NCBI GenBank assembly: GCA_025786725.1
Contig: JAHLTZ010000004.1
Location: 496,001-560,000, forward strand
DNA from: Syncephalis fuscata S228
Taxonomy: Eukaryota; Fungi; Zoopagomycota
Direction: 5' to 3'
DNA length: 64,000 nt
The stretch's first letter is position 1, and each line of letters begins with the position of its first letter. The translations under genes and the position numbers were made by a program. Below, piece after piece: positions 6,165 to 58,925 of this stretch. Under the pieces are notes generated by a model. It was not told the DNA's origin and made no database searches. It saw only the letters and a program-made list of their open reading frames with translations.

Positions 6165-6273
6165 AACAAGAGTAGTGCAATAAGATAAAATACCGTAAAG
6201 ACAAAGGAAAACAAAAACAAAAATTATAATATTAAATTAATATTAATAATTTTCATTAATGATTATACTTAAC

Positions 6274-7110
6274 AATATTTTATTTTACTGAATTACACAT
6301 TCTTTCTATTGAACATAGAGCTGGGTGGCGAGTGAAATGATTGTCAAAATAATCATTATCATAGATTTATTATCTTGTATGCATATATTATTGTATTATA
6401 AAACCATATTATTGTTATATTTTATCTCTAGATAGGTAGTAACGAATATAGGCAATGCAATAATTGTGTTGGCAATTGTGCACATATAGCAACGCGGACT
6501 ACTACTATCGATCTTGTACATACTGTTGCCAGCACGACTTGTAATGGTATACGTAGTAGACAAGGCACACTGTAAAAACTCATAACGTATATTTGATCAT
6601 AAATCAGTATTAAAACAGACATGTATTACTTATGTTAATAAATATGCAAATAACAATAATCAGAGTGAAAAGGTGAATAGCAAAAGAGCAGATTATAAAA
6701 GAGCAATGCAAGTACATAGTGTAAATAGTGTTTGTACTCAACTAGTAGTCAGTCAACTACTCACAATATCTAATTAGTATATATGAAGTGTACAAGTATA
6801 TGCTATGTATATATGATATCAAGTGTGAAGAAAGAGAAAGGGGAATGCGATGACGTAGATTGTGAGATGTGATCCCTGTCAGTCAATATTTATAAACAGC
6901 CAAGTTTAATTCATTAATAAATGGAGTGTAATAATAAAAGTTAATCTGCCCAACATGTCGTACATCATAGAACAACAAGTAAAGCAATAGTGTATTAAGA
7001 ATAAAAGTCATTTAGCATTAAAAACTACTCATTATTATAGAACATAAATTCAATATAATAGCAAGTATAATAAAAGCTCAATTAAAAGAATAAGTTATTT
7101 TGCCTCCAAA
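6274..7110 (-). repeat. Block X copy 1 (~830 bp), inverted near-identical copy of 30300-31139
   Basis: Reverse complement matches 30300-31139 almost base for base; the same 64-aa ORF appears at 6428-6622(-) and 30791-30985(+). Confidence 0.95.
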
Positions 7111-7269
7111 ACTAAGCTATTAATTAATGTTACTTATTCGTAATTAGTATAATTTAATAGCTTTACTATTATTATTTATTGTATATTCTTCGTATGACCC
7201 GAAAATTTAAACGTGGTCACGCTATGGCGTCTATTGCAAAGCACGACAAATATTAAACAGCAGCACATT

Positions 7270-9405
7270 TTAAAGGAACGACCATATAGTTCCAGTCACG
7301 GCACAGAACGCACTAAACATCAATAGTACTGTATCTATAATGCGCCAAACACCACGACGACCAAATATCTTCCAATGGCAAAAAACTGGGAAAATAACAC
7401 AAAGACTAAACGCATTAAAGCTGCCTACAAGCGACATGACACGATGAAACCCAGGAAATACAACAGCAATGAAACAAACAAGCGTTGATAGCGCAGATCT
7501 TAAGACCAAACGACGTGGGCGTGTCAGTTGGGCGGGTTTAAAGCAGCGTAGTTCAATAATTGAGATAACAGGATTAAGTCCAAGAGCAAACTTGCTAATA
7601 GGAATAAGTAGAAACATGTAAAGTGTAGCCATAGTTAATAGTTTAGGATAACCGGGAACTTTGGCCAAATTTTGCGTAATCTAATTATTTAAGTAAGTAT
7701 GAAGGCCGCCATGTTCAATATAGCTTACTTACCTCCTGCAATGCCCCATCCCCAAACATCAAATAACCAGCAAGTGCCATAGTGATGTAAGTTGACAGTG
7801 TGAACATATAAGCAATATTGGCCATTTTACCAAATTTACGTGGCTGGCTCATATCACGATAAAGATTTGGGAGTACGGGATGTCCAGCAAATCCAACCAT
7901 CAATAAACCAAAGCTGAGCGGTAGTTGTGACCAATCGGTAGGCAATGCATTGATGGTAGCCCATTGCCACAAAGAGCCAGGTGATGTTGATTTTGATAGG
8001 CCATCAAGTACAACGACCACAGTTAGCATCATGGTACTAGCTACACCTAGTACACTGCCATAAGCAAGCAAGCGTAGAGCCAACCAAGTTGTTGGTGTAA
8101 GTAAGGCCCAAGCAATCAATTTAGGCAGCTGTGGAACTGAGCTATTGGCCAGCTCAGGTCGAATAGCTACCAGCGAGTCCGATAGTACAATGACCACAGC
8201 CACACTCACTGCAACCAGTTCAATGACTAGCATGAATGTAAGTAGGTGGCGACCGGCTGCACCAAATGCCGCTTGTCCAATATCCGCATAGGTTATAAGT
8301 GTGCTATCAGATGAAAGACATTTTTTAATAAGACCTGCCGTATACCGAGTGGTTAATGCAACCAAAACAAGCATACTTAGGCCTAACAACCACCCAGTAA
8401 TTTGGAATGCTAGCGGCAAAGATAATACAGCAATGCCCATAAGTAAATTAACTGCATTAAATACAGATTGTGAAAAACTGCTATGGACGGGGGCTGGCTC
8501 AGCCGTAACTTGCAATGTTGAGTGTGGTTTCTCCGAGTGGATGCCAATGGTTACTGCCGTGTTAGTATTTGGTGTTGCACCATAATTGGTGCTATTGTAA
8601 GAAGCTATTTTACGATGTGGATCGTTTTTCGCCATCAGTGGAATATGTTCCTCAGCAATAGATTTATCATCCATTGCATCGATTCGGCTTGTCATTGTAC
8701 TAAGAAGTAATACTTCTGATGCTTCATTAATACTACTATTGTGGCTTGGTAGTCGCATAAGCTGTGAACTTGAGTGATCGAAATTCACGCCTACATCATA
8801 GTGAGATCCCAACGAACCGACAGGTAATGAACCACTATTTATCGATTCATTAGCGGTAATAATAACAAATTGATTATATTAGTTAGCGTTATGCTATTGC
8901 TATGATTGTTGTTATAGCAACCTTAGTATGCTACTTACATAATAGGCGCACCCTGAGCAGGAGACGAGGCGATCCACAAGCCACCCGGTGTGGGATACTC
9001 AAATGAATGATTATTGCTGATGTAACTACGTACCACGCTAATTACGGATGCGCCACTCGACCGTCCCCCATGCCGTCTATTCTCTTGGTAGTTGACACTG
9101 TTATTTTCATGCTCATCACCACTTAAATCATTGCTTATATTTGAGTTGATAGTATTACTGTCTTCTTCGTCACTAGAGGCTGAATAGCCAAAACCGGCTC
9201 TGTTCATAGGTATTTGTTCTTCGTCATGCCCTGTGGCCGTTGATTCAAACAAACGGAATCCAGGCCTGTAATTAGAATGACGATCTTGACCTACTATCGC
9301 TTGCACCCCTTCATTTGTATTTATTTCCTCTTGGTATTCAGATGGACATCTAGAAGAGCCGACGACAGTAGTGCCAGCAGTAGAGGATGACGATGATTTT
9401 TCCAT
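7270..9405 (-). CDS. Vacuolar amino-acid transporter (AVT1-like, Aa_trans/AAAP family), paralogue A, 3 exons
   Basis: SSFSQSVFNAVNLLMGIAVLSLPLAF, TYADIGQAAFG, GFAGHPVLPNLYRDM, FPGFHRVMSLVGS; long acidic N-terminal tail. Confidence 0.92.
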
Positions 9406-9982
9406 GAGATAAACACTATAAAAATGGCTTGTGCTGACTATGGTTCGTTGTTGCTTGAAACTATTTATCTATAATAAATAGATAAACAATAATATCTTTT
9501 TAATCACAAACAATAAATGAAAGCAATATCAATTAAAACAGATAAAGGAAATGGACAACGCGTGTTTACACACGCTTATACATACACACACAAATAAGCA
9601 AACAAGTAGGTAACGGCAAAGCACTACAGAAAAAATAAAAAAATAAAGAGAGGAGAACGAAGGTGAAAAAACGCCGATAAACACGCAGAAAATGATAGGA
9701 GAATGTCTGTGCAATGTTGATATATATGCAAGTGTTTAGTGCGGCAATAATAGCAAAAGCGGCGATAGCAGTAAAGGCGGTCACATTGATGCTTGGGCAC
9801 TCAAGGTTCTTTGTCGAAAAAAACGGATATAAAATGAGGCACTGAACATAAATGGTCCACGAATTGCTGTACGAGTGATGACGCATTTGCACGCGTATAT
9901 ACGTAATACTAGCAATAATGGTAGAATAAATTAGGACGAGAAAAGGGCAGACATTTCGTTGTTGTGTATGTTTGTGCAGGGG

Positions 9983-10956
9983 ACCAATCCCAGCCAAGCC
10001 GACCAACTTTGCGGTCACTGAAAAACAGCGTCTCCTCCAATGGCTGTTCACGCTGACCTCGTGTCTATAGCAATTATCATTAGATCGCTACGTCATGTGC
10101 AACAGAGTGACCACTTCTTGCAGCTGAATTAGCTAGCTACCCTCTCAGTGGTTTTTATTATGCATGGCGCTTGCCATGGCTATAATAAATACTAATTTCA
10201 ACAATTAAATAGTAATTTGACCCAATTGTTTAAACTTTATTATTGTTACTATTATTGAACGCTTAATATTCAATCTATTTATATAGTGGTAATAGTAACA
10301 TTTAATGCACTGTTTATTCAAATATACACTATTTGATTTACTCTGAGAAGTTTTGTATTATTACTGTTGTTCAGGTTGCAGGATATATCGCAGTTGCTAT
10401 GACGATATTGTTTTTGCATTGTATATAGCTTTGGCTGTTTAATAGCATTCACATAGAATATGGTCTAATCCTATAAGACAGCCAATATGATGGTTACACA
10501 GCTAAAGAGTATTTTATCATGCACACAAATTATGACAACCATTAACCGACCCAAAACAGCCATCATTATTAACAGTACAGGTTTGCTGATTAATGCGAAT
10601 AGCTAGTTATTGTATTCGACCAATTGATCTGCTCGTAAAAGGTTTCTGCTTAGTTGTTGTTGTCTATTAACAAAGTTGTAGCTATTTTGTAAAGTGTTTA
10701 CGTGGCAATTTAATACTACCTCAACTAGTTTTATTTTCGCAGGCAAGGCGTCATAGAGGTACGTTTAACTATTGTGTGCTATTTGTAAATTAAAGATATT
10801 TACTGTTTGCTTCCACATGCTGAATATTAATTAATTAAAAACAATCTATTAATTTTTAGTATAATCTGGTGCTAAATGACTATATTTGATAATATTTGCG
10901 CAATTAAACCACACATTCGTTCTATTAGGCATGAAACTGAATGATGCTAGATACTA
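9983..10956 (-). repeat. Block Y copy 1 (~975 bp, non-coding), inverted near-identical copy of 31195-32168
   Basis: Direct reverse-complement comparison; only a couple of mismatches seen. Confidence 0.95.
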
Positions 10957-11663
10957 ATGGTCAAAATATTTGTTATATAAATTTATTAACTACAAAGTAA
11001 ATTTTTTTACTTGATTTACTGTCATACACGCTATAGCTTTATTGTTGATATTTACGCACTTTTACTTGTTTGCTCATGGCGTTTTATATTATGTTGTATT
11101 TATTGGCTATTAAATGCATTTTAGAATAAAAAAATGAAATGATTATCATTCGTTATGTTATACTCTTTATGATTAGCGTGATGCTCACATATAATTTCAT
11201 TTGATTAAAAATTAGTATATGGTACAAATACTGCGGTGTTTGGGTAGATGCGCTATTAGATTGAGCAATATCCAACAAATGATAAAACCAAGAAAGAAAC
11301 AGAATATTTAGAGTCTGTCAATAGCCTTGTTCAGATAATTTATAAATCTTTGATGTAATCATACATAGCTGTTGATCTACAATAAAGTACACATTAACAT
11401 AAATTATAGTTAAACCGCAATTTGGTTGCAACATAAAATAAACTGTAAATAATAATTAATTTATTATTGCATATTAACAGCAGCAAAAAGGTATTATCCT
11501 TTGGAATAACTGGGGTAAATCATACCTGTGTTTTGATATGCTTTTAATTATATCAAAAAATACAGAGTGTCGTGGTGCGTGCGCAATTGGTATGCAATGT
11601 TAATTGGCTGTACATTAAATAGCTATTTAATTGATTGTATTTAAACATTTAGATAAATAATGT

Positions 11664-12151
11664 AACATACTATTTGATTTTTTTGAAACATTTAGAGCCA
11701 ATTATTATTGTTGTAGGTGGCCATGTGTAGAAAAATTGATTGAATATTAATAGAAACCATATGATGGCAATTCTATGTCATTCAGCATTTGTTGTTATTG
11801 TATCTAAATGGTCTCTTCTATTTTCTAATATTCTACTATTGCATTATGAGCATATCTGTGATGCAAGACTAAAACTAATATAATTATTATAAAAGTTGTT
11901 TATTAAACAGCCACTTCTTCTATAGCCAATCCGACTAAATAAATGGCATTTTGAACAATTAATATTATAATGACAATATATATGTATATATTAAAACAAT
12001 AATAAAGATAACTAATTAATTACATTATTATATAATAATTACACATGAATTAATTAATGTTGGATGCAACATTATACATGGAATAGTGATGGATAGGTGT
12101 TTAGTTGTGTCTAAAAGTATCAAGAAAATGAAGTGAAACGAGTAAATAAAA
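11664..12151 (+). repeat. ~490-bp direct repeat, copy 1 (left border of CRN island)
   Basis: aacatactatttgattttt...gagtaaataaaa is near-identical to 19578-20062. Confidence 0.95.
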
Positions 12152-13041
12152 TAAAGAGGACTTGGACCTGTCTGTCCACTGGCTGGACGAGTTGGTAGGT
12201 CAAAACGAGATAGCAATCACTGTAGGGAGGACATGGAACAATCAAGACTAAAAGGCAGATGACGTCCAGTAAATCACTATCCTTTGCTTTCCAAAATCTA
12301 ATGATTCAATGACATGGTCGCTAACTATGAGTAAAATGACGCAATCCTAAGTATAGTGGCTGTGCATTGTGACAAACCAGCAATTTCAATAGAATCTTCT
12401 CTTTCCTCCCCATCCAGTGACAGGATTGACAGAGATCTGCAGCAAAACTTTTCCTTCAAGTCGCGTTTCGTCATACACGGCTCTTTCCTCTTTCCGTTTC
12501 TCGTCTCATCCACCTTCACACGCCGTCAACTTCTGTCCCTCATTCACACGCTGTCAGTTTATGTCACCTCATCTCATCCTCACTCCTGTTGGTCTCTTCG
12601 ATTCCGCTAGTATGTTTGGGGCTGCTGGCATTTTCCTATTAATTCTGCACAATACCTCCCGAAAGGACCACGAAACGCACTAAAAAAGCGTCTTGTACAA
12701 TCCAAGATAAGCTTATCCCGACAGCAATAGACGTCTTTTCTCTCCGCCCCATACACCTTCTATCTGCTCTGCACCTATTGTGACATCTGCAAGACGTCAA
12801 AAAGAGAACTATGAGCCGTCTCATGTCTCACATGCCTCTCTGCTTGTCATTGCTGTCAGGCTGGCGCATCATGAGCCTACGTGACTCTTGTCGTCCTCTC
12901 ACTTCTTTATCTCTTGCTTGCTTTCTCTTATTCAGCCTTTTCGTTCTTACTCTACTACTACGTAACCTCAACATTGCCTTTAACCTTGTTTCTTTCTGTG
13001 TTACAAATCAAGATTAGCCAGTCTCAGTAGCACCTGAAGTA

Positions 13042-15512
13042 ATGTCGACCGTCTGGGTCAAGCTTCTTCAAGCTGCACCGAACAGTTCACGCTTTACGGA
13101 GCTGGGCATTGACCAAGTCCTAGTCGAAAGCAAGATTCCTAACCAAGAATCCGATGTCGCCGACCTTCGCAAAACACTTATCACTGATGTTGCTTTCAGA
13201 AACAAGCTTGATGGCATAGCCTCGTCTGACCTAAAAGTCTACAAGAATGAGGCCGACGCCGGCGATCCGGGAAAGGCCATCAAGCTGAGCAAGAAACTCA
13301 GCGAGCTTGTCGATGGCAATAGCGACGACAACCCGCTGATCGTTGTAGTACCACCACCTCCCAGTAAGTAGTGCAGGCGCGATATTGCCAGGTTACTAGT
13401 TATAAATGTTATCAGGTCTTCTCACACTTTATCCCATTTTTCCTACAGACAGTCCTTTACTTAAACGAAAAGGCGATTTTCTTGACGAAAAATCAGTATC
13501 TCGCCTGAAACAAGAATATGAACATGTGTACACTTTTACTACTTCAAACAGTAAGTTATTTTGGCTGTTGTTGTTAGTGGTGTGGTCTGTACTGGATGTG
13601 AATTTGTCTAACCCGCTGGTTTTTTACAGGGCCGCGTCACTTTGAGCACACTAATGAAGTATACCGGAGTATAACTTCTATATTGACCCAGACAAGTCCA
13701 GGAATTTGGAGAGACCTCCTCAAGCGCAGGTTTTTCTCTACGATGGTCACCGCCAGAGTGGCAAATCCACCTTTTGTCAGGCGCTATTACGGTGGTTTGA
13801 CGAGCATCCAAATAAGTTTCTGGAGATTACTGGTAGCCCCGGGAAAATTTCGAGATACCTCGTAACTTTAATGGTAGCATTAGATCAACCAAACAAGCCA
13901 AGCGTTCTGGGAGTCCATATGCATGGTCTTTTGTGCCGCCGACAACATCCGGTTCAACCTTGATTCTAAAGCCAATGTGAATTCAGCAACGTTCAAGCAT
14001 TTCTTTTCAAAGAGGCTCCATCCAAAGAAGATGATTCTCATCATTGACGAAGTTTCGTATCTGGCTAGTCTGGGCGACGGAGACCGGAATAGCAAGCAAT
14101 TTGCAGACATGTTCATCAGCGCCCTGAGAGCCCTTAAAGATGACCGCACCAACTTTAATCTATTTTCTCTTGCGTTTGTTGGCACCTCCAAAATTAGACA
14201 GCTTCTTATTCCCCACCAAGAACCTGGTTTATCAAGCCGTATTTCACCGTTTTCAGATGAGGGAGGACGACATTTTGGGGCCGACCAGTTTACCAAAGAA
14301 GAGGTTCAAAATCTCATGTTCCAGTATGCCAAACATGTGCCTGGATTTGACGCAACCGGTATCGGAGAAATATCTACGACCTACCTCTGGCCACAAAGGT
14401 TTGTCGGCGTTTGTGGCTGTTTTATTGAAAAAAGAAAAGAAATCCCATCCTTACTGTTGACGATTGGAAAATAATATTCAATTGGCAGGCCTTGTGCGAA
14501 GACGGAACATTATGACTCCATAATTCGGGCTCTTAAGCACCTCACAGAAAGGGCCAAATCTATCCTCATTAAAGTCCTTTATAATAAGACCGCTGAGGTC
14601 GAGGTAAGTTGACGATCTTGACTTTCATGTTTTAATTGTCAATTCGTCGTTCTTATTTACTTACTGATCGATTAATTTCATAGACGAGGAATTTCGCTAC
14701 AAAGTACCTTGTCTCGGAGGGAATGATTGTTCTTGTAGACCTAGCTGAAGATGGGCTTACAGCTACAGCCAAGTGCAGTGCGTCTATTCTTCGCAGTTTG
14801 ATGCTGGAAACAATGAGTATACAAGAAATCGAGCTATCTGAAGGGCCACCGAACGTGGATGAACTTGACCCTCGGTGGTTGTTGAAACATATAATTAAGG
14901 TGAGTGTTGTATATATAGTATAAAGCTCATTGGCAATGGATTGATATTGACATTTGTTTGGTCAATTCCTATTCATACAGAACCTGTCTATTCAGCGTCT
15001 TTGGACTAGGCAATCCTTGAACGCTGGCGGATTTCCGTCAGACTATGCGTTTCAAGCCGAGTTTGGCATTATCCTTAACAGTCTGCTCCCAGAGCGTACT
15101 CAGGATTAGGCTACAGAGCCTTCCTGGAAGTCAAGGATCGCGGCCAAGACAATGGAAGACTAGACATTCTCGTACATAATGGCCGCAACAGACCTAAATA
15201 CGGCTTCAAATTGATGGTTGATGCGACCGAAGCGGTATTTGATGAGCAATGTCGTCGTGCCGAAAAATACGCCCAAACTTACGGCTGTGCTGCGGTGTAT
15301 GTAATTAATCTATGTCCCAGCTCCAGTGAACAGCTAGGCTACTTTGGAAGCAAGTATGACAAAGTGGTCCCAGTGGTCGTGGCTATTGATCACGAAGGAT
15401 ATGAAGGTACGATAATTACGACGAGAATGATAATGATAGCATAGAGATTGTACGTCAAAATTGGGATATTGCATTTAGGGATATCGGACGAGTTATGTCT
15501 AGCTCTTCTTAA
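13042..15512 (+). pseudogene. Crinkler (CRN/CR-effector)-like gene: ubiquitin-like header + P-loop NTPase + PD-(D/E)xK REase-like domain; multiple frameshifts (pseudogene or uncorrected errors)
   Basis: Header DVADLRKTL..LDGIASSDLKVYKN..NPLIVVVPPPP; Walker A GHRQSGKST; Walker B ILIIDE; TSGHKGL; C-terminal GRLDILVHNG..YGFKLMV..QCRRAEKYA. Introns at ~13364-13448, 13551-13629, ~14604-14682 and ~14901-14980. Confidence 0.8.
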
Positions 15513-57691: not shown

Positions 57692-58280
57692 GACAAAATA
57701 ATGGTAGAGAAAAGTTGGTTGCGAAACACGTGGTGATCGCTAATAGTCGTAATGACGTTATGGCAGATCTTCTGTTTTCATGGGCTTTGCGCACAAATAG
57801 GCCGTATAACACGCTTATACTGGATTGACGATTGCTGCCCGACGCCCTCTTGTAACAATAAAAACTTTTACTGAAATAGGATTAAGAACAAATGATGTTC
57901 TATTGGCTGTTTTTTCGAACGTGAGCTGTTACCAAGCAGACAAAACGGAATGGTGTCGTTTATTTCTTTATTTTTTTATTTTGATTAGCCTCTTGTAATT
58001 TGTCTCTTGTTTGTTCTCGTGCACTTAAGGATATAATAGTGGAAGTAAAATTGGCAAATTTCCAACTCCGGCTATAATTTTGTAAGTTCCAGTAATTTAG
58101 CTACATAATCGGAGTTTTATGTTATTACAGCTATGTTGATAATAAAAGAATTTTCAAAAATACACCGTTTTTATTATAAATTTTAAAGATTATTTATTAA
58201 TTAAATCATTTTTTGTTTGCTTTACACTTTATCTGTTTTTGCGATGACAATCACCACAGATCAAACACTCTTTAATAACA

Positions 58281-58925
58281 CATGCTCTTTTTTATAGCTA
58301 TTTCATTAGTATTTTGTATTTGTTTTTCAATAAAAACGTTTATTTCAACATCAACTACTGTTTCAATACTATTAGTACTATTTACACAGCATATTTTTGT
58401 ATTGTATTTTTTAAGTTGTATTTACCACAAGTATATTGTTGGAAGTTTTTTAACAAATAAACATAATTGGCATTGCTTTTAATATTGCTACAATTGACTA
58501 AACTACATATATAAGCAAAGTTTTAAATTAAATTTTGTTACATTTATTGTAATTAACTTTTTTCCATCAGGGATTTTTAGCTTTGTAACTTTTATTATTC
58601 AACAGCATTATAAATACATAGTACTGTTACTCAAATAATCATAAAAATGTCTTTTTATAATACAAGTCATTTTAGTTTACTATCAGAATTTATACAATTA
58701 CAATTTCTGTTATAAATCTGCTGATTTGAGCCATTGTTATAAGCTAAAGTCATTTGATACTAAGCATATTTTTTATTAAGTTGGTATTAAAGCATTTGAC
58801 TAAGCTAATATTTCTATGTCTTTTCTTTTAAAATTACAATTGCCAACAAGTTTAAACTCGTCAATAGTAATCCTCAGTTCTTCGGCACTGGTAAACATAG
58901 TTTTTTTAACTAGTTTGGTAGACAT
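58281..58925 (-). mobile_element. Degenerate dispersed repeat, possible DNA-transposon (MULE/FAR1-like) relic
   Basis: Inverted copy of 16230-16690 with a ~100-bp indel; the adjacent short ORF MFTSAEELRITIDEF loosely resembles the start of a MuDR/FAR1 DNA-binding domain. Confidence 0.35.

What the first reader, a model, noticed from the sequence alone, without database searches (positions are those of the whole stretch)
13042..15512. Hidden Crinkler-type toxin/effector gene (Ubl header - NTPase - nuclease) fragmented across many ORFs
Seen: stitching 5 exons and several frameshifts gives an N-terminal ubiquitin-like header (DVADLRK..LKVYKN..NPLIVVVP), a P-loop NTPase (GHRQSGKST/ILIIDE) and a PD-(D/E)xK-like domain (GRLDILV..YGFKL). 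Known: this is the CR-NTPase+REase architecture of Crinkler effectors of oomycetes, chytrids and arbuscular mycorrhizal fungi, a family linked to transposons. Inference: a candidate host-directed or inter-fungal nuclease effector. The K at the expected catalytic E (GFKL) and the frameshift density suggest inactivation, or poor polishing of a multicopy gene.
Basis: partly seen in the sequence, partly recalled or inferred. Interest (0 to 1): 0.8.

Follow-up and report, generated by a model that had tools for sequence, protein, structure and literature searches.

The report
Intact Crinkler-type gene, blunted nuclease
In a fungus that parasitises other fungi, this spliced, transcribed gene likely only looks shattered because the genome assembly dropped about 20 bases; it encodes a Crinkler-type toxin-like protein whose DNA-cutting site has lost a key acidic residue, so it likely binds DNA or partner proteins rather than cutting.

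Summary
A five-exon gene runs from 13042 to 15512, and RNA contigs splice all four introns. It breaks at 16 places (20 bases), always by missing bases. RNA contigs without substitutions carry the extra bases, and neighbouring genes show none (7 gaps in 1,737 nt against 0 in 4,802). Read with X at the breaks, it is stop-free, 721 aa. The frameshifts are therefore most likely assembly errors, not decay. The database model (named Syncephalis fuscata) misses the last domain. Architecture: header, P-loop NTPase (AAA_22) and a restriction-endonuclease fold (best match BamHI, Z 7.5, modelled on a homologue). Mucoromycota homologues share three intron positions and carry Pfam Crinkler headers. This header links to Crinkler only weakly and indirectly, but sits on different C-termini elsewhere in the genome. 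The lysine at the catalytic glutamate is real: RNA confirms it, and 9 of 9 homologues have E. Three of five invariant acidic residues changed, against two of twenty others. Best reading: a nuclease-blunted Crinkler-type effector. The gene lies between 488-bp direct repeats. Verdict: a variant of a known family; moderate interest.

The parts
12631..13041 (+). Transcribed 5' leader, partly shared with other loci that carry the same header
   Evidence: RNA contig 12631-13079 without differences. P0014 aligns from 12811 and P0013 from 13000 into exon 1.
13042..13363 (+). Exon 1: 107-aa header, a divergent Crinkler-like (likely ubiquitin-like) domain ending in PLIVVVPPP just before a phase-1 intron
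   Evidence: 75% and 57% identical to the N-termini of P0005 and P0010, which differ downstream. Header relatives P0022 and P0019 hit PF20147 at E 8e-4 and 0.054, below the cut-off. hhalign to Crinkler headers E 0.002, probability 13%.
13449..13550 (+). Exon 2: linker with a basic KRK patch (possible nuclear signal, inferred); missing from the database model
   Evidence: Spliced on both sides in RNA; in frame by phase; absent from P0001.
13630..14603 (+). Exon 3: P-loop NTPase (Walker A 13745-13771, Walker B 14034-14051) and following helical region; 14 assembly breaks (18 bases)
   Evidence: AAA_22 32.4 bits, cut-off 27, on P0001. Breaks.
14684..14899 (+). Exon 4: helical region between NTPase and nuclease (HTH by family architecture, not tested)
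   Evidence: Open frame; about 30-35% identical to homologues.
14981..15512 (+). Exon 5: restriction-endonuclease-fold domain; two assembly breaks (near 15090 and 15414). Strand-2 Asp kept (15163-65); Glu to Asp at 15041-43 and 15136-38; Glu to Lys at 15208-10
   Evidence: Fold from homologue model; RNA contig 15091-15353 without differences and DNA-type contig 15006-15193 with 0 substitutions and 1 gap.
11664..12151 (+). Left 488-bp direct repeat of a 7.9-kb unit that holds the gene
   Evidence: 98% identical to 19578-20062.
19578..20062 (+). Right direct repeat; member of a dispersed repeat family
   Evidence: 29 contigs of run X3 lie on it at 19844.

Best explanation
This is a transcribed, spliced Crinkler-type gene, likely intact, whose 721-aa product (header, NTPase, restriction-endonuclease fold) has likely lost most DNA-cutting activity and is predicted to act in the host fungus by binding DNA or partner Crinkler proteins rather than by killing. 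Shown: splicing, domain order, intact Walker motifs, the nuclease fold of the family, the Glu-to-Lys change, and one header on several C-termini. Strongly inferred (about 0.88): the frameshifts are assembly deletions. Inferred (about 0.65): the nuclease is crippled. Inferred from the family only (about 0.5): the header delivers it to host hyphae, the basic linker takes it to the nucleus, and the NTPase switches its DNA or partner binding.
For: Intact gene: 4 of 4 introns spliced; RNA contigs with 0 substitutions carry 7 gaps in 1,737 nt, neighbours 0 in 4,802 nt (p 9e-5; 3 in 5,269 and p 0.003 if a low-depth non-coding contig is included). Homologue-placed and RNA-listed breaks coincide. With N at the breaks there is no stop and exon phases join. 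Family: homologues at 30-37% identity in Mortierellaceae, Rhizophagus, Endogone, Ambispora; Crinkler headers on P0003, L001, L004 above cut-off; three intron positions shared with homologous loci. Fold: pLDDT 80.9; the ten best structure matches are all restriction-fold nucleases, BamHI Z 7.5, rmsd 3.5, 126 aligned; Atlas features point to PD-(D/E)XK families. Blunting: E in 9 of 9 homologues, K here; 3 of 5 invariant acidic columns changed against 2 of 20 others (p 0.04). BamHI catalytic mutants still bind DNA (PMC8845596, passages); Crinkler variants without cell death keep their virulence effect and suppress active copies (PMC5947615, abstract).
Against: No activity, delivery or localisation was tested. 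The header has no direct Pfam or PDB match and its model was unusable (pLDDT 41.6). Z 7.5 is within the range the tool calls middling, Foldseek gave no E<=0.001, and the model is of P0002, not of this protein. K rests on the assembly plus one RNA contig. Nine of the 20 missing bases come from one contig (depth 1141 of 1847), and two listed places from contigs that also carry substitutions. p 0.04 rests on 25 columns and related sequences. P0012, left out of the count because it lacks the RLD strand, shows K in that column. A sequence-specific Asp four residues after the Lys might compensate.
Confidence: 0.45

Rival explanations
1. The nuclease is active with a rearranged centre: the kept Asp, the helix-1 Asp, the new Lys and an Asp four residues further on replace the family's Glu set, so it is an ordinary DNA-damaging Crinkler toxin.
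For: 20 of 25 invariant columns kept, including the strand-2 Asp, the E-x-K and the Arg; the domain is as conserved as the NTPase (41% to P0002); two of the three acidic changes are conservative.
Against: No counted homologue (0 of 9) lacks the Glu; single acidic losses cripple BamHI (PMC8845596, passages). No geometry could be measured on the model.
Confidence: 0.2
2. It is not host-directed. It is a selfish or internal-conflict gene, carried in a repeat-bounded 7.9-kb unit, whose toxic nuclease was recently disarmed and which may be starting to decay or restrains active copies inside the parasite.
For: Flanking 488-bp direct repeats, 98% identical, share variants that most laid contigs lack. 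No clear signal peptide (best 9-residue hydropathy 1.29). The review reports CR proteins in non-pathogens and links to transposons (PMC5289972, passages).
Against: No transposase or pol ORF inside the unit, no TG..CA ends or target duplication seen; introns are shared with distant fungi, so the core is an old nuclear gene; the same review notes that CR headers lack signal peptides in general.
Confidence: 0.22
3. This locus is a true pseudogene; the intact transcripts come from a near-identical copy or allele elsewhere.
For: Several related transcripts exist (98 contigs laid: 33 at 99% or more, 21 at 95-99, 20 at 90-95, 24 below). The RNA differs from the assembly at a few neighbour sites. No whole genome or raw reads were available.
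Against: Zero substitutions beside seven gaps is not how genes decay; all unambiguous events (14 of 14) are deletions; no stop codons; a second study's contig also shows a gap with 0 substitutions at 15006-15193.
Confidence: 0.1

Closest known systems
Crinkler (CR/CRN) proteins of the header + NTPase + HTH + REase type (Zhang et al. 2016, known here only through PMC5289972 passages; the paper was not held)
   Same: Domain order; header ending in a xLIVVVP motif at a recombination point; one header on several C-termini; no signal peptide.
   Different: Header below the Pfam PF20147 cut-off; strand-3 Glu replaced by Lys; found in a Zoopagomycota parasite of fungi. The numbered CR-NTPase and CR-REase subfamilies could not be assigned.
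Unannotated Mucoromycota homologues (P0002 Entomortierella, P0003/P0004 Rhizophagus, P0008/P0011 Mortierella, loci L001-L011)
   Same: GHRQSGK NTPase, same nuclease family, three shared intron positions; 30-37% identity.
   Different: They keep all five invariant acidic residues and carry classical Crinkler headers (P0003, L001, L004) or helical ones (L006, L008, L011).
RiCRN1 of Rhizophagus irregularis (PMC6131194, passages)
   Same: Fungal Crinkler with a predicted REase domain in a biotroph.
   Different: REase5 type with catalytic residues reported as conserved, predicted signal peptide, plant host; no sequence comparison was made here.
Cleavage-deficient BamHI (PMC8845596) and no-cell-death PcCRN83_152 variants (PMC5947615)
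   Same: Model for binding without cutting, and for Crinkler function without cell death.
   Different: Laboratory mutants of other proteins; the residue equivalence to BamHI is inferred from motif order, not from a residue-level structural alignment.

Membership tests
Crinkler (CR) proteins | N-terminal ubiquitin-like header (Pfam PF20147) | tested here: inconclusive
   No direct hit. 2 of 9 header-alignment members hit PF20147, best E 1.8e-4; hhalign E 0.002, probability 13%; reverse profile finds P0022 and P0019 at E 0.003 among 2,077 targets; model unusable.
Crinkler (CR) proteins | Header ends in an HVLVVVP-like motif that marks a swap point; header shared by different C-termini | tested here: met
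   PLIVVVPPP then a phase-1 intron; P0005 and P0010 align over the first 23% only; homologous cores carry other headers.
Crinkler (CR) proteins | P-loop NTPase in the C-terminal part | tested here: met
   AAA_22 32.4 bits against cut-off 27; Walker A and B intact.
Crinkler (CR) proteins | HTH between NTPase and REase | not tested
   No model or profile was run on this region alone.
Crinkler (CR) proteins | C-terminal restriction-endonuclease fold | tested here: met
   Homologue model pLDDT 80.9; ten best VIA matches are restriction-fold nucleases, Z 6.2-7.5; Atlas PD-(D/E)XK clan 10 of 10; window domain 41% identical to the modelled one.
Crinkler (CR) proteins | Translocation into host cells and nuclear localisation | not testable with these tools
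   Needs experiment.
Active PD-(D/E)XK nucleases | Strand-2 catalytic Asp | tested here: met
   RLDIL, invariant in 9 of 9 homologues and kept.
Active PD-(D/E)XK nucleases | Strand-3 acidic metal ligand | tested here: not met
   Lys here, Glu in 9 of 9 homologues; confirmed by RNA contig 15091-15353.
Active PD-(D/E)XK nucleases | Helix-1 acidic residue | tested here: inconclusive
   Asp here, Glu in 8 of 8 homologues that cover it.
LTR element or composite transposon | TG..CA ends, target-site duplication, mobility genes | tested here: not met
   Ends and flanks read; no ORF of 100 aa or more with a mobile-element domain inside the unit.

The most novel reading that the evidence does not exclude
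Syncephalis runs its own Crinkler arsenal against other fungi: a lineage-specific promoter-leader-header cassette is swapped at a phase-1 intron onto different toxin cores and moved in repeat-bounded units. This member is a selected pseudo-nuclease that keeps the host alive by occupying chromatin or by poisoning active nuclease partners, a natural dominant-negative effector for fungus-on-fungus biotrophy.
Probability: 0.15. Interest if true: 0.72.

Novelty: new variant of a known kind. Interest (0 to 1): 0.42.

Why it matters
The effectors of haustorial parasites of fungi are barely described. In the held library no paper has both 'Crinkler' and 'Syncephalis', and a 2026 mycoparasite-effector survey never mentions Crinklers in its main text. 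This locus gives a concrete, transcribed candidate. It is also a natural test of the open question whether Crinklers need nuclease activity and cell death to work. Practically, it shows how local assembly errors hide such genes: the public model invents introns and drops the nuclease domain, so effector counts from this annotation may be too low.

Tried and rejected
No whole genome is held, so paralogues and copy number could not be counted directly. Header: no Pfam hit at E 10, no meaningful PDB sequence hit, AlphaFold pLDDT 41.6, not fold-searched, shallow hhalign not significant; the Atlas held none of the headers tried. Two of the 11 header-search hits (P0018 leucine-rich repeat, P0020 fibronectin) were dropped as spurious. 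Nuclease domain: no Pfam, PADLOC or PDB sequence match. No prokaryotic relative by pattern scan (0 of 28 candidates); this scan is insensitive. No Rfam match in 10900-20200. No run is on record as RNA; X1 is taken as RNA from its spliced joints. Contig depth was not used to rank expression. Runs X2-X4 cover the gene only in patches and say nothing on copy number. Three look-ups of earlier findings were empty. Horizontal transfer from a host fungus was considered but not tested: identities of 30-37% and few taxa. Zhang et al. 2016 was not held; its supplements may already list this subfamily.

Full report
Setting. The window is intron-rich fungal DNA with housekeeping genes around the finding: seryl-tRNA synthetase, amino-acid transporter, Pex14, citrate transporter. 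No whole genome is held. A database protein, P0001 (473 aa, KAI9598397.1, named Syncephalis fuscata hypothetical protein), matches the locus at 92-100% in four pieces. It skips exon 2 and the frameshifted stretches and ends in intron 4, so it lacks the last domain. Syncephalis is described as an obligate parasite of fungi (PMC13188720 and PMC10386755, passages). The species label rests on database names only.

Observation. Contigs of run X1 splice 4 of 4 predicted GT..AG introns (table 5), which shows that X1 is RNA and that the gene is transcribed. Exons: 13042-13363, 13449-13550, 13630-14603, 14684-14899, 14981-15512.

Frameshifts. A frameshift-aware alignment of each exon to 9 homologues gave 15 events: 14 one base short, 1 ambiguous, no stops. 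Independently, RNA contigs put in 16 bases at 12 listed places in exon 3 (table 4; 32 further rows were not shown), close to the homologue-placed events. With N at those 12 places plus two homologue-placed ones, exon 3 has no stop in 330 codons; a 210-nt contig over that stretch has exactly four gaps and no substitution. None of 2,000 random placements was stop-free. Exon 5 has two breaks. The one near 15090 is backed by a second study's contig with 0 substitutions and 1 gap; the one near 15414 by an RNA loose end. The frame then ends at 15512, giving 721 aa with matching exon phases. Listed contigs without substitutions show 7 gaps in 1,737 nt; four contigs of neighbouring genes show 0 in 4,802 nt (p 9e-5). 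I left out one 18-substitution contig as a paralogue and one low-depth non-coding contig; with the latter p is 0.003. Deletions without substitutions or stops point to local consensus error. Caveats: nine bases rest on one contig, two places on contigs that also carry substitutions, and contigs cannot tell this locus from a near-identical copy. Related transcripts exist (98 contigs laid, 65 of them below 99% identity), which may be why polishing failed here; that is inference.

Family. P0001 found 11 other proteins among 7,994 candidates scored: nine share the core (Mortierellaceae, Rhizophagus, Endogone, Ambispora, two unnamed) and two from S. fuscata share only the header. A metagenome scan added 11 loci from 56 pattern matches; prokaryotic genomes gave 0 of 28. 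The NTPase passes Pfam AAA_22. Homologous cores carry Pfam Crinkler headers (P0003, L001, L004 above cut-off, L009 below) or helical N-termini (L006, L008, L011). Introns 2, 3 and 4 lie at the same positions in several of these loci, so the core is an old fungal gene with exchangeable heads. This matches the header + NTPase + HTH + REase layout described for Crinklers (PMC5289972, passages). The primary paper was not held.

Header. It has no direct Pfam or PDB match and did not fold. A profile search of 1.84 billion proteins gave 11 hits at E<=0.001: three S. fuscata proteins, one Paraglomus, five unnamed or generically named, two spurious. Two of them hit Pfam Crinkler weakly (E 8e-4 and 0.054); a nine-sequence profile aligns to Crinkler headers at E 0.002, probability 13%, and the reverse search agrees. 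It is likely a divergent Crinkler header, but this is not settled. At least five S. fuscata database proteins carry it (P0001, P0005, P0010, P0013, P0014), and two share upstream leader sequence with this locus. The header ends at a phase-1 intron, a natural swap point.

Nuclease. The C-terminal domain of homologue P0002, folded with an 11-row alignment, reached pLDDT 80.9. Its ten best matches among 48,161 chains are restriction-fold nucleases, led by BamHI (Z 7.5, rmsd 3.5, 126 aligned; ranks within 1 Z are tied). Foldseek found nothing at E<=0.001. The Atlas placed the domain of P0004 near PD-(D/E)XK families. Nine homologues reach the domain (5 of 11 proteins, 4 of 11 loci); P0012 was left out because it lacks the RLD strand, and it shows K in the column in question. 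Of 25 invariant columns the window keeps 20. It changes Glu to Asp twice, Glu to Lys once, and two hydrophobic residues conservatively. Acidic columns changed in 3 of 5, others in 2 of 20 (p 0.04). The Lys lies in an RNA contig of 263 nt without differences, so it is not an assembly error. Fold kept and acids lost is the pattern of a pseudo-enzyme. BamHI catalytic mutants keep DNA binding (PMC8845596, passages). Crinkler variants without cell death still aid infection and suppress active copies (PMC5947615, abstract), and Crinklers are reported to dimerise (PMC5289972, passages).

Surroundings. The gene sits in a 7.9-kb unit bounded by 488-bp direct repeats, 98% identical. The repeat is dispersed in the genome, but both copies share letters at four places where most laid contigs differ, so they look like sister copies. 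No LTR ends, target duplication or mobility gene was seen. Insertion by recombination at the repeat is a possibility, not a result.

Mechanism. Most likely the protein is made whole, is delivered by its header into the host fungus (inferred from the family), reaches the nucleus, and uses its NTPase to switch binding of a blunted nuclease domain to DNA or to partner Crinklers, modulating rather than killing. I give this 0.45; an internal or selfish role 0.22; an active rearranged nuclease 0.2; a true pseudogene 0.1.

Novelty. The architecture is known. New here are the corrected gene, its place in a parasite of fungi, the divergent header family and the selectively blunted nuclease. Literature checks: 'Crinkler' + 'Syncephalis' 0 papers; 'Crinkler' + 'Zoopagomycota' 4, of which one was read in passages and shows no link, three seen as listings; 'Crinkler' + 'mycoparasite' 20 listings, none on Zoopagomycota by title or abstract start; 'Syncephalis fuscata' 5 papers, 4 listed, none on effectors by title. 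PMC6131194 and PMC12957317 were read in passages. No supplements were read. Interest 0.42.

Noticed in passing
window 6258-10956 and 30301-35042: Inverted segmental duplication holding an amino-acid transporter gene: 89.6% over 3.9 kb and 98% over 856 bp.
   Followed up: partly
window 17603-18815: Non-coding element with 340-bp inverted arms (93-95%) and a third, 80% copy in tandem at 17940-18275; MITE- or foldback-like, no target duplication seen.
   Followed up: partly
window 16233-16792 and 58170-58838; 17131-17546 and 19136-19552: Further dispersed repeats (74-86%) inside the 7.9-kb unit.
   Followed up: no
P0005, P0010, P0017: Same header family on other C-termini without Pfam hits. By recalled motifs they look like another NTPase plus nuclease, a second REase type, and a kinase-like region; not tested.
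   Followed up: no
L001 2144-2260: The homologous locus also changes frame at the start of its nuclease domain.
   Followed up: no
window 33432-33531, 33608-33681, 34424-34495: RNA contigs skip stretches with non-canonical ends in the second transporter copy, probably transcripts of a diverged paralogue.
   Followed up: no
window 20563-27899: Run X3 has no contigs over these coding genes but covers AT-rich repeats, so it is not a plain whole-genome library.
   Followed up: no
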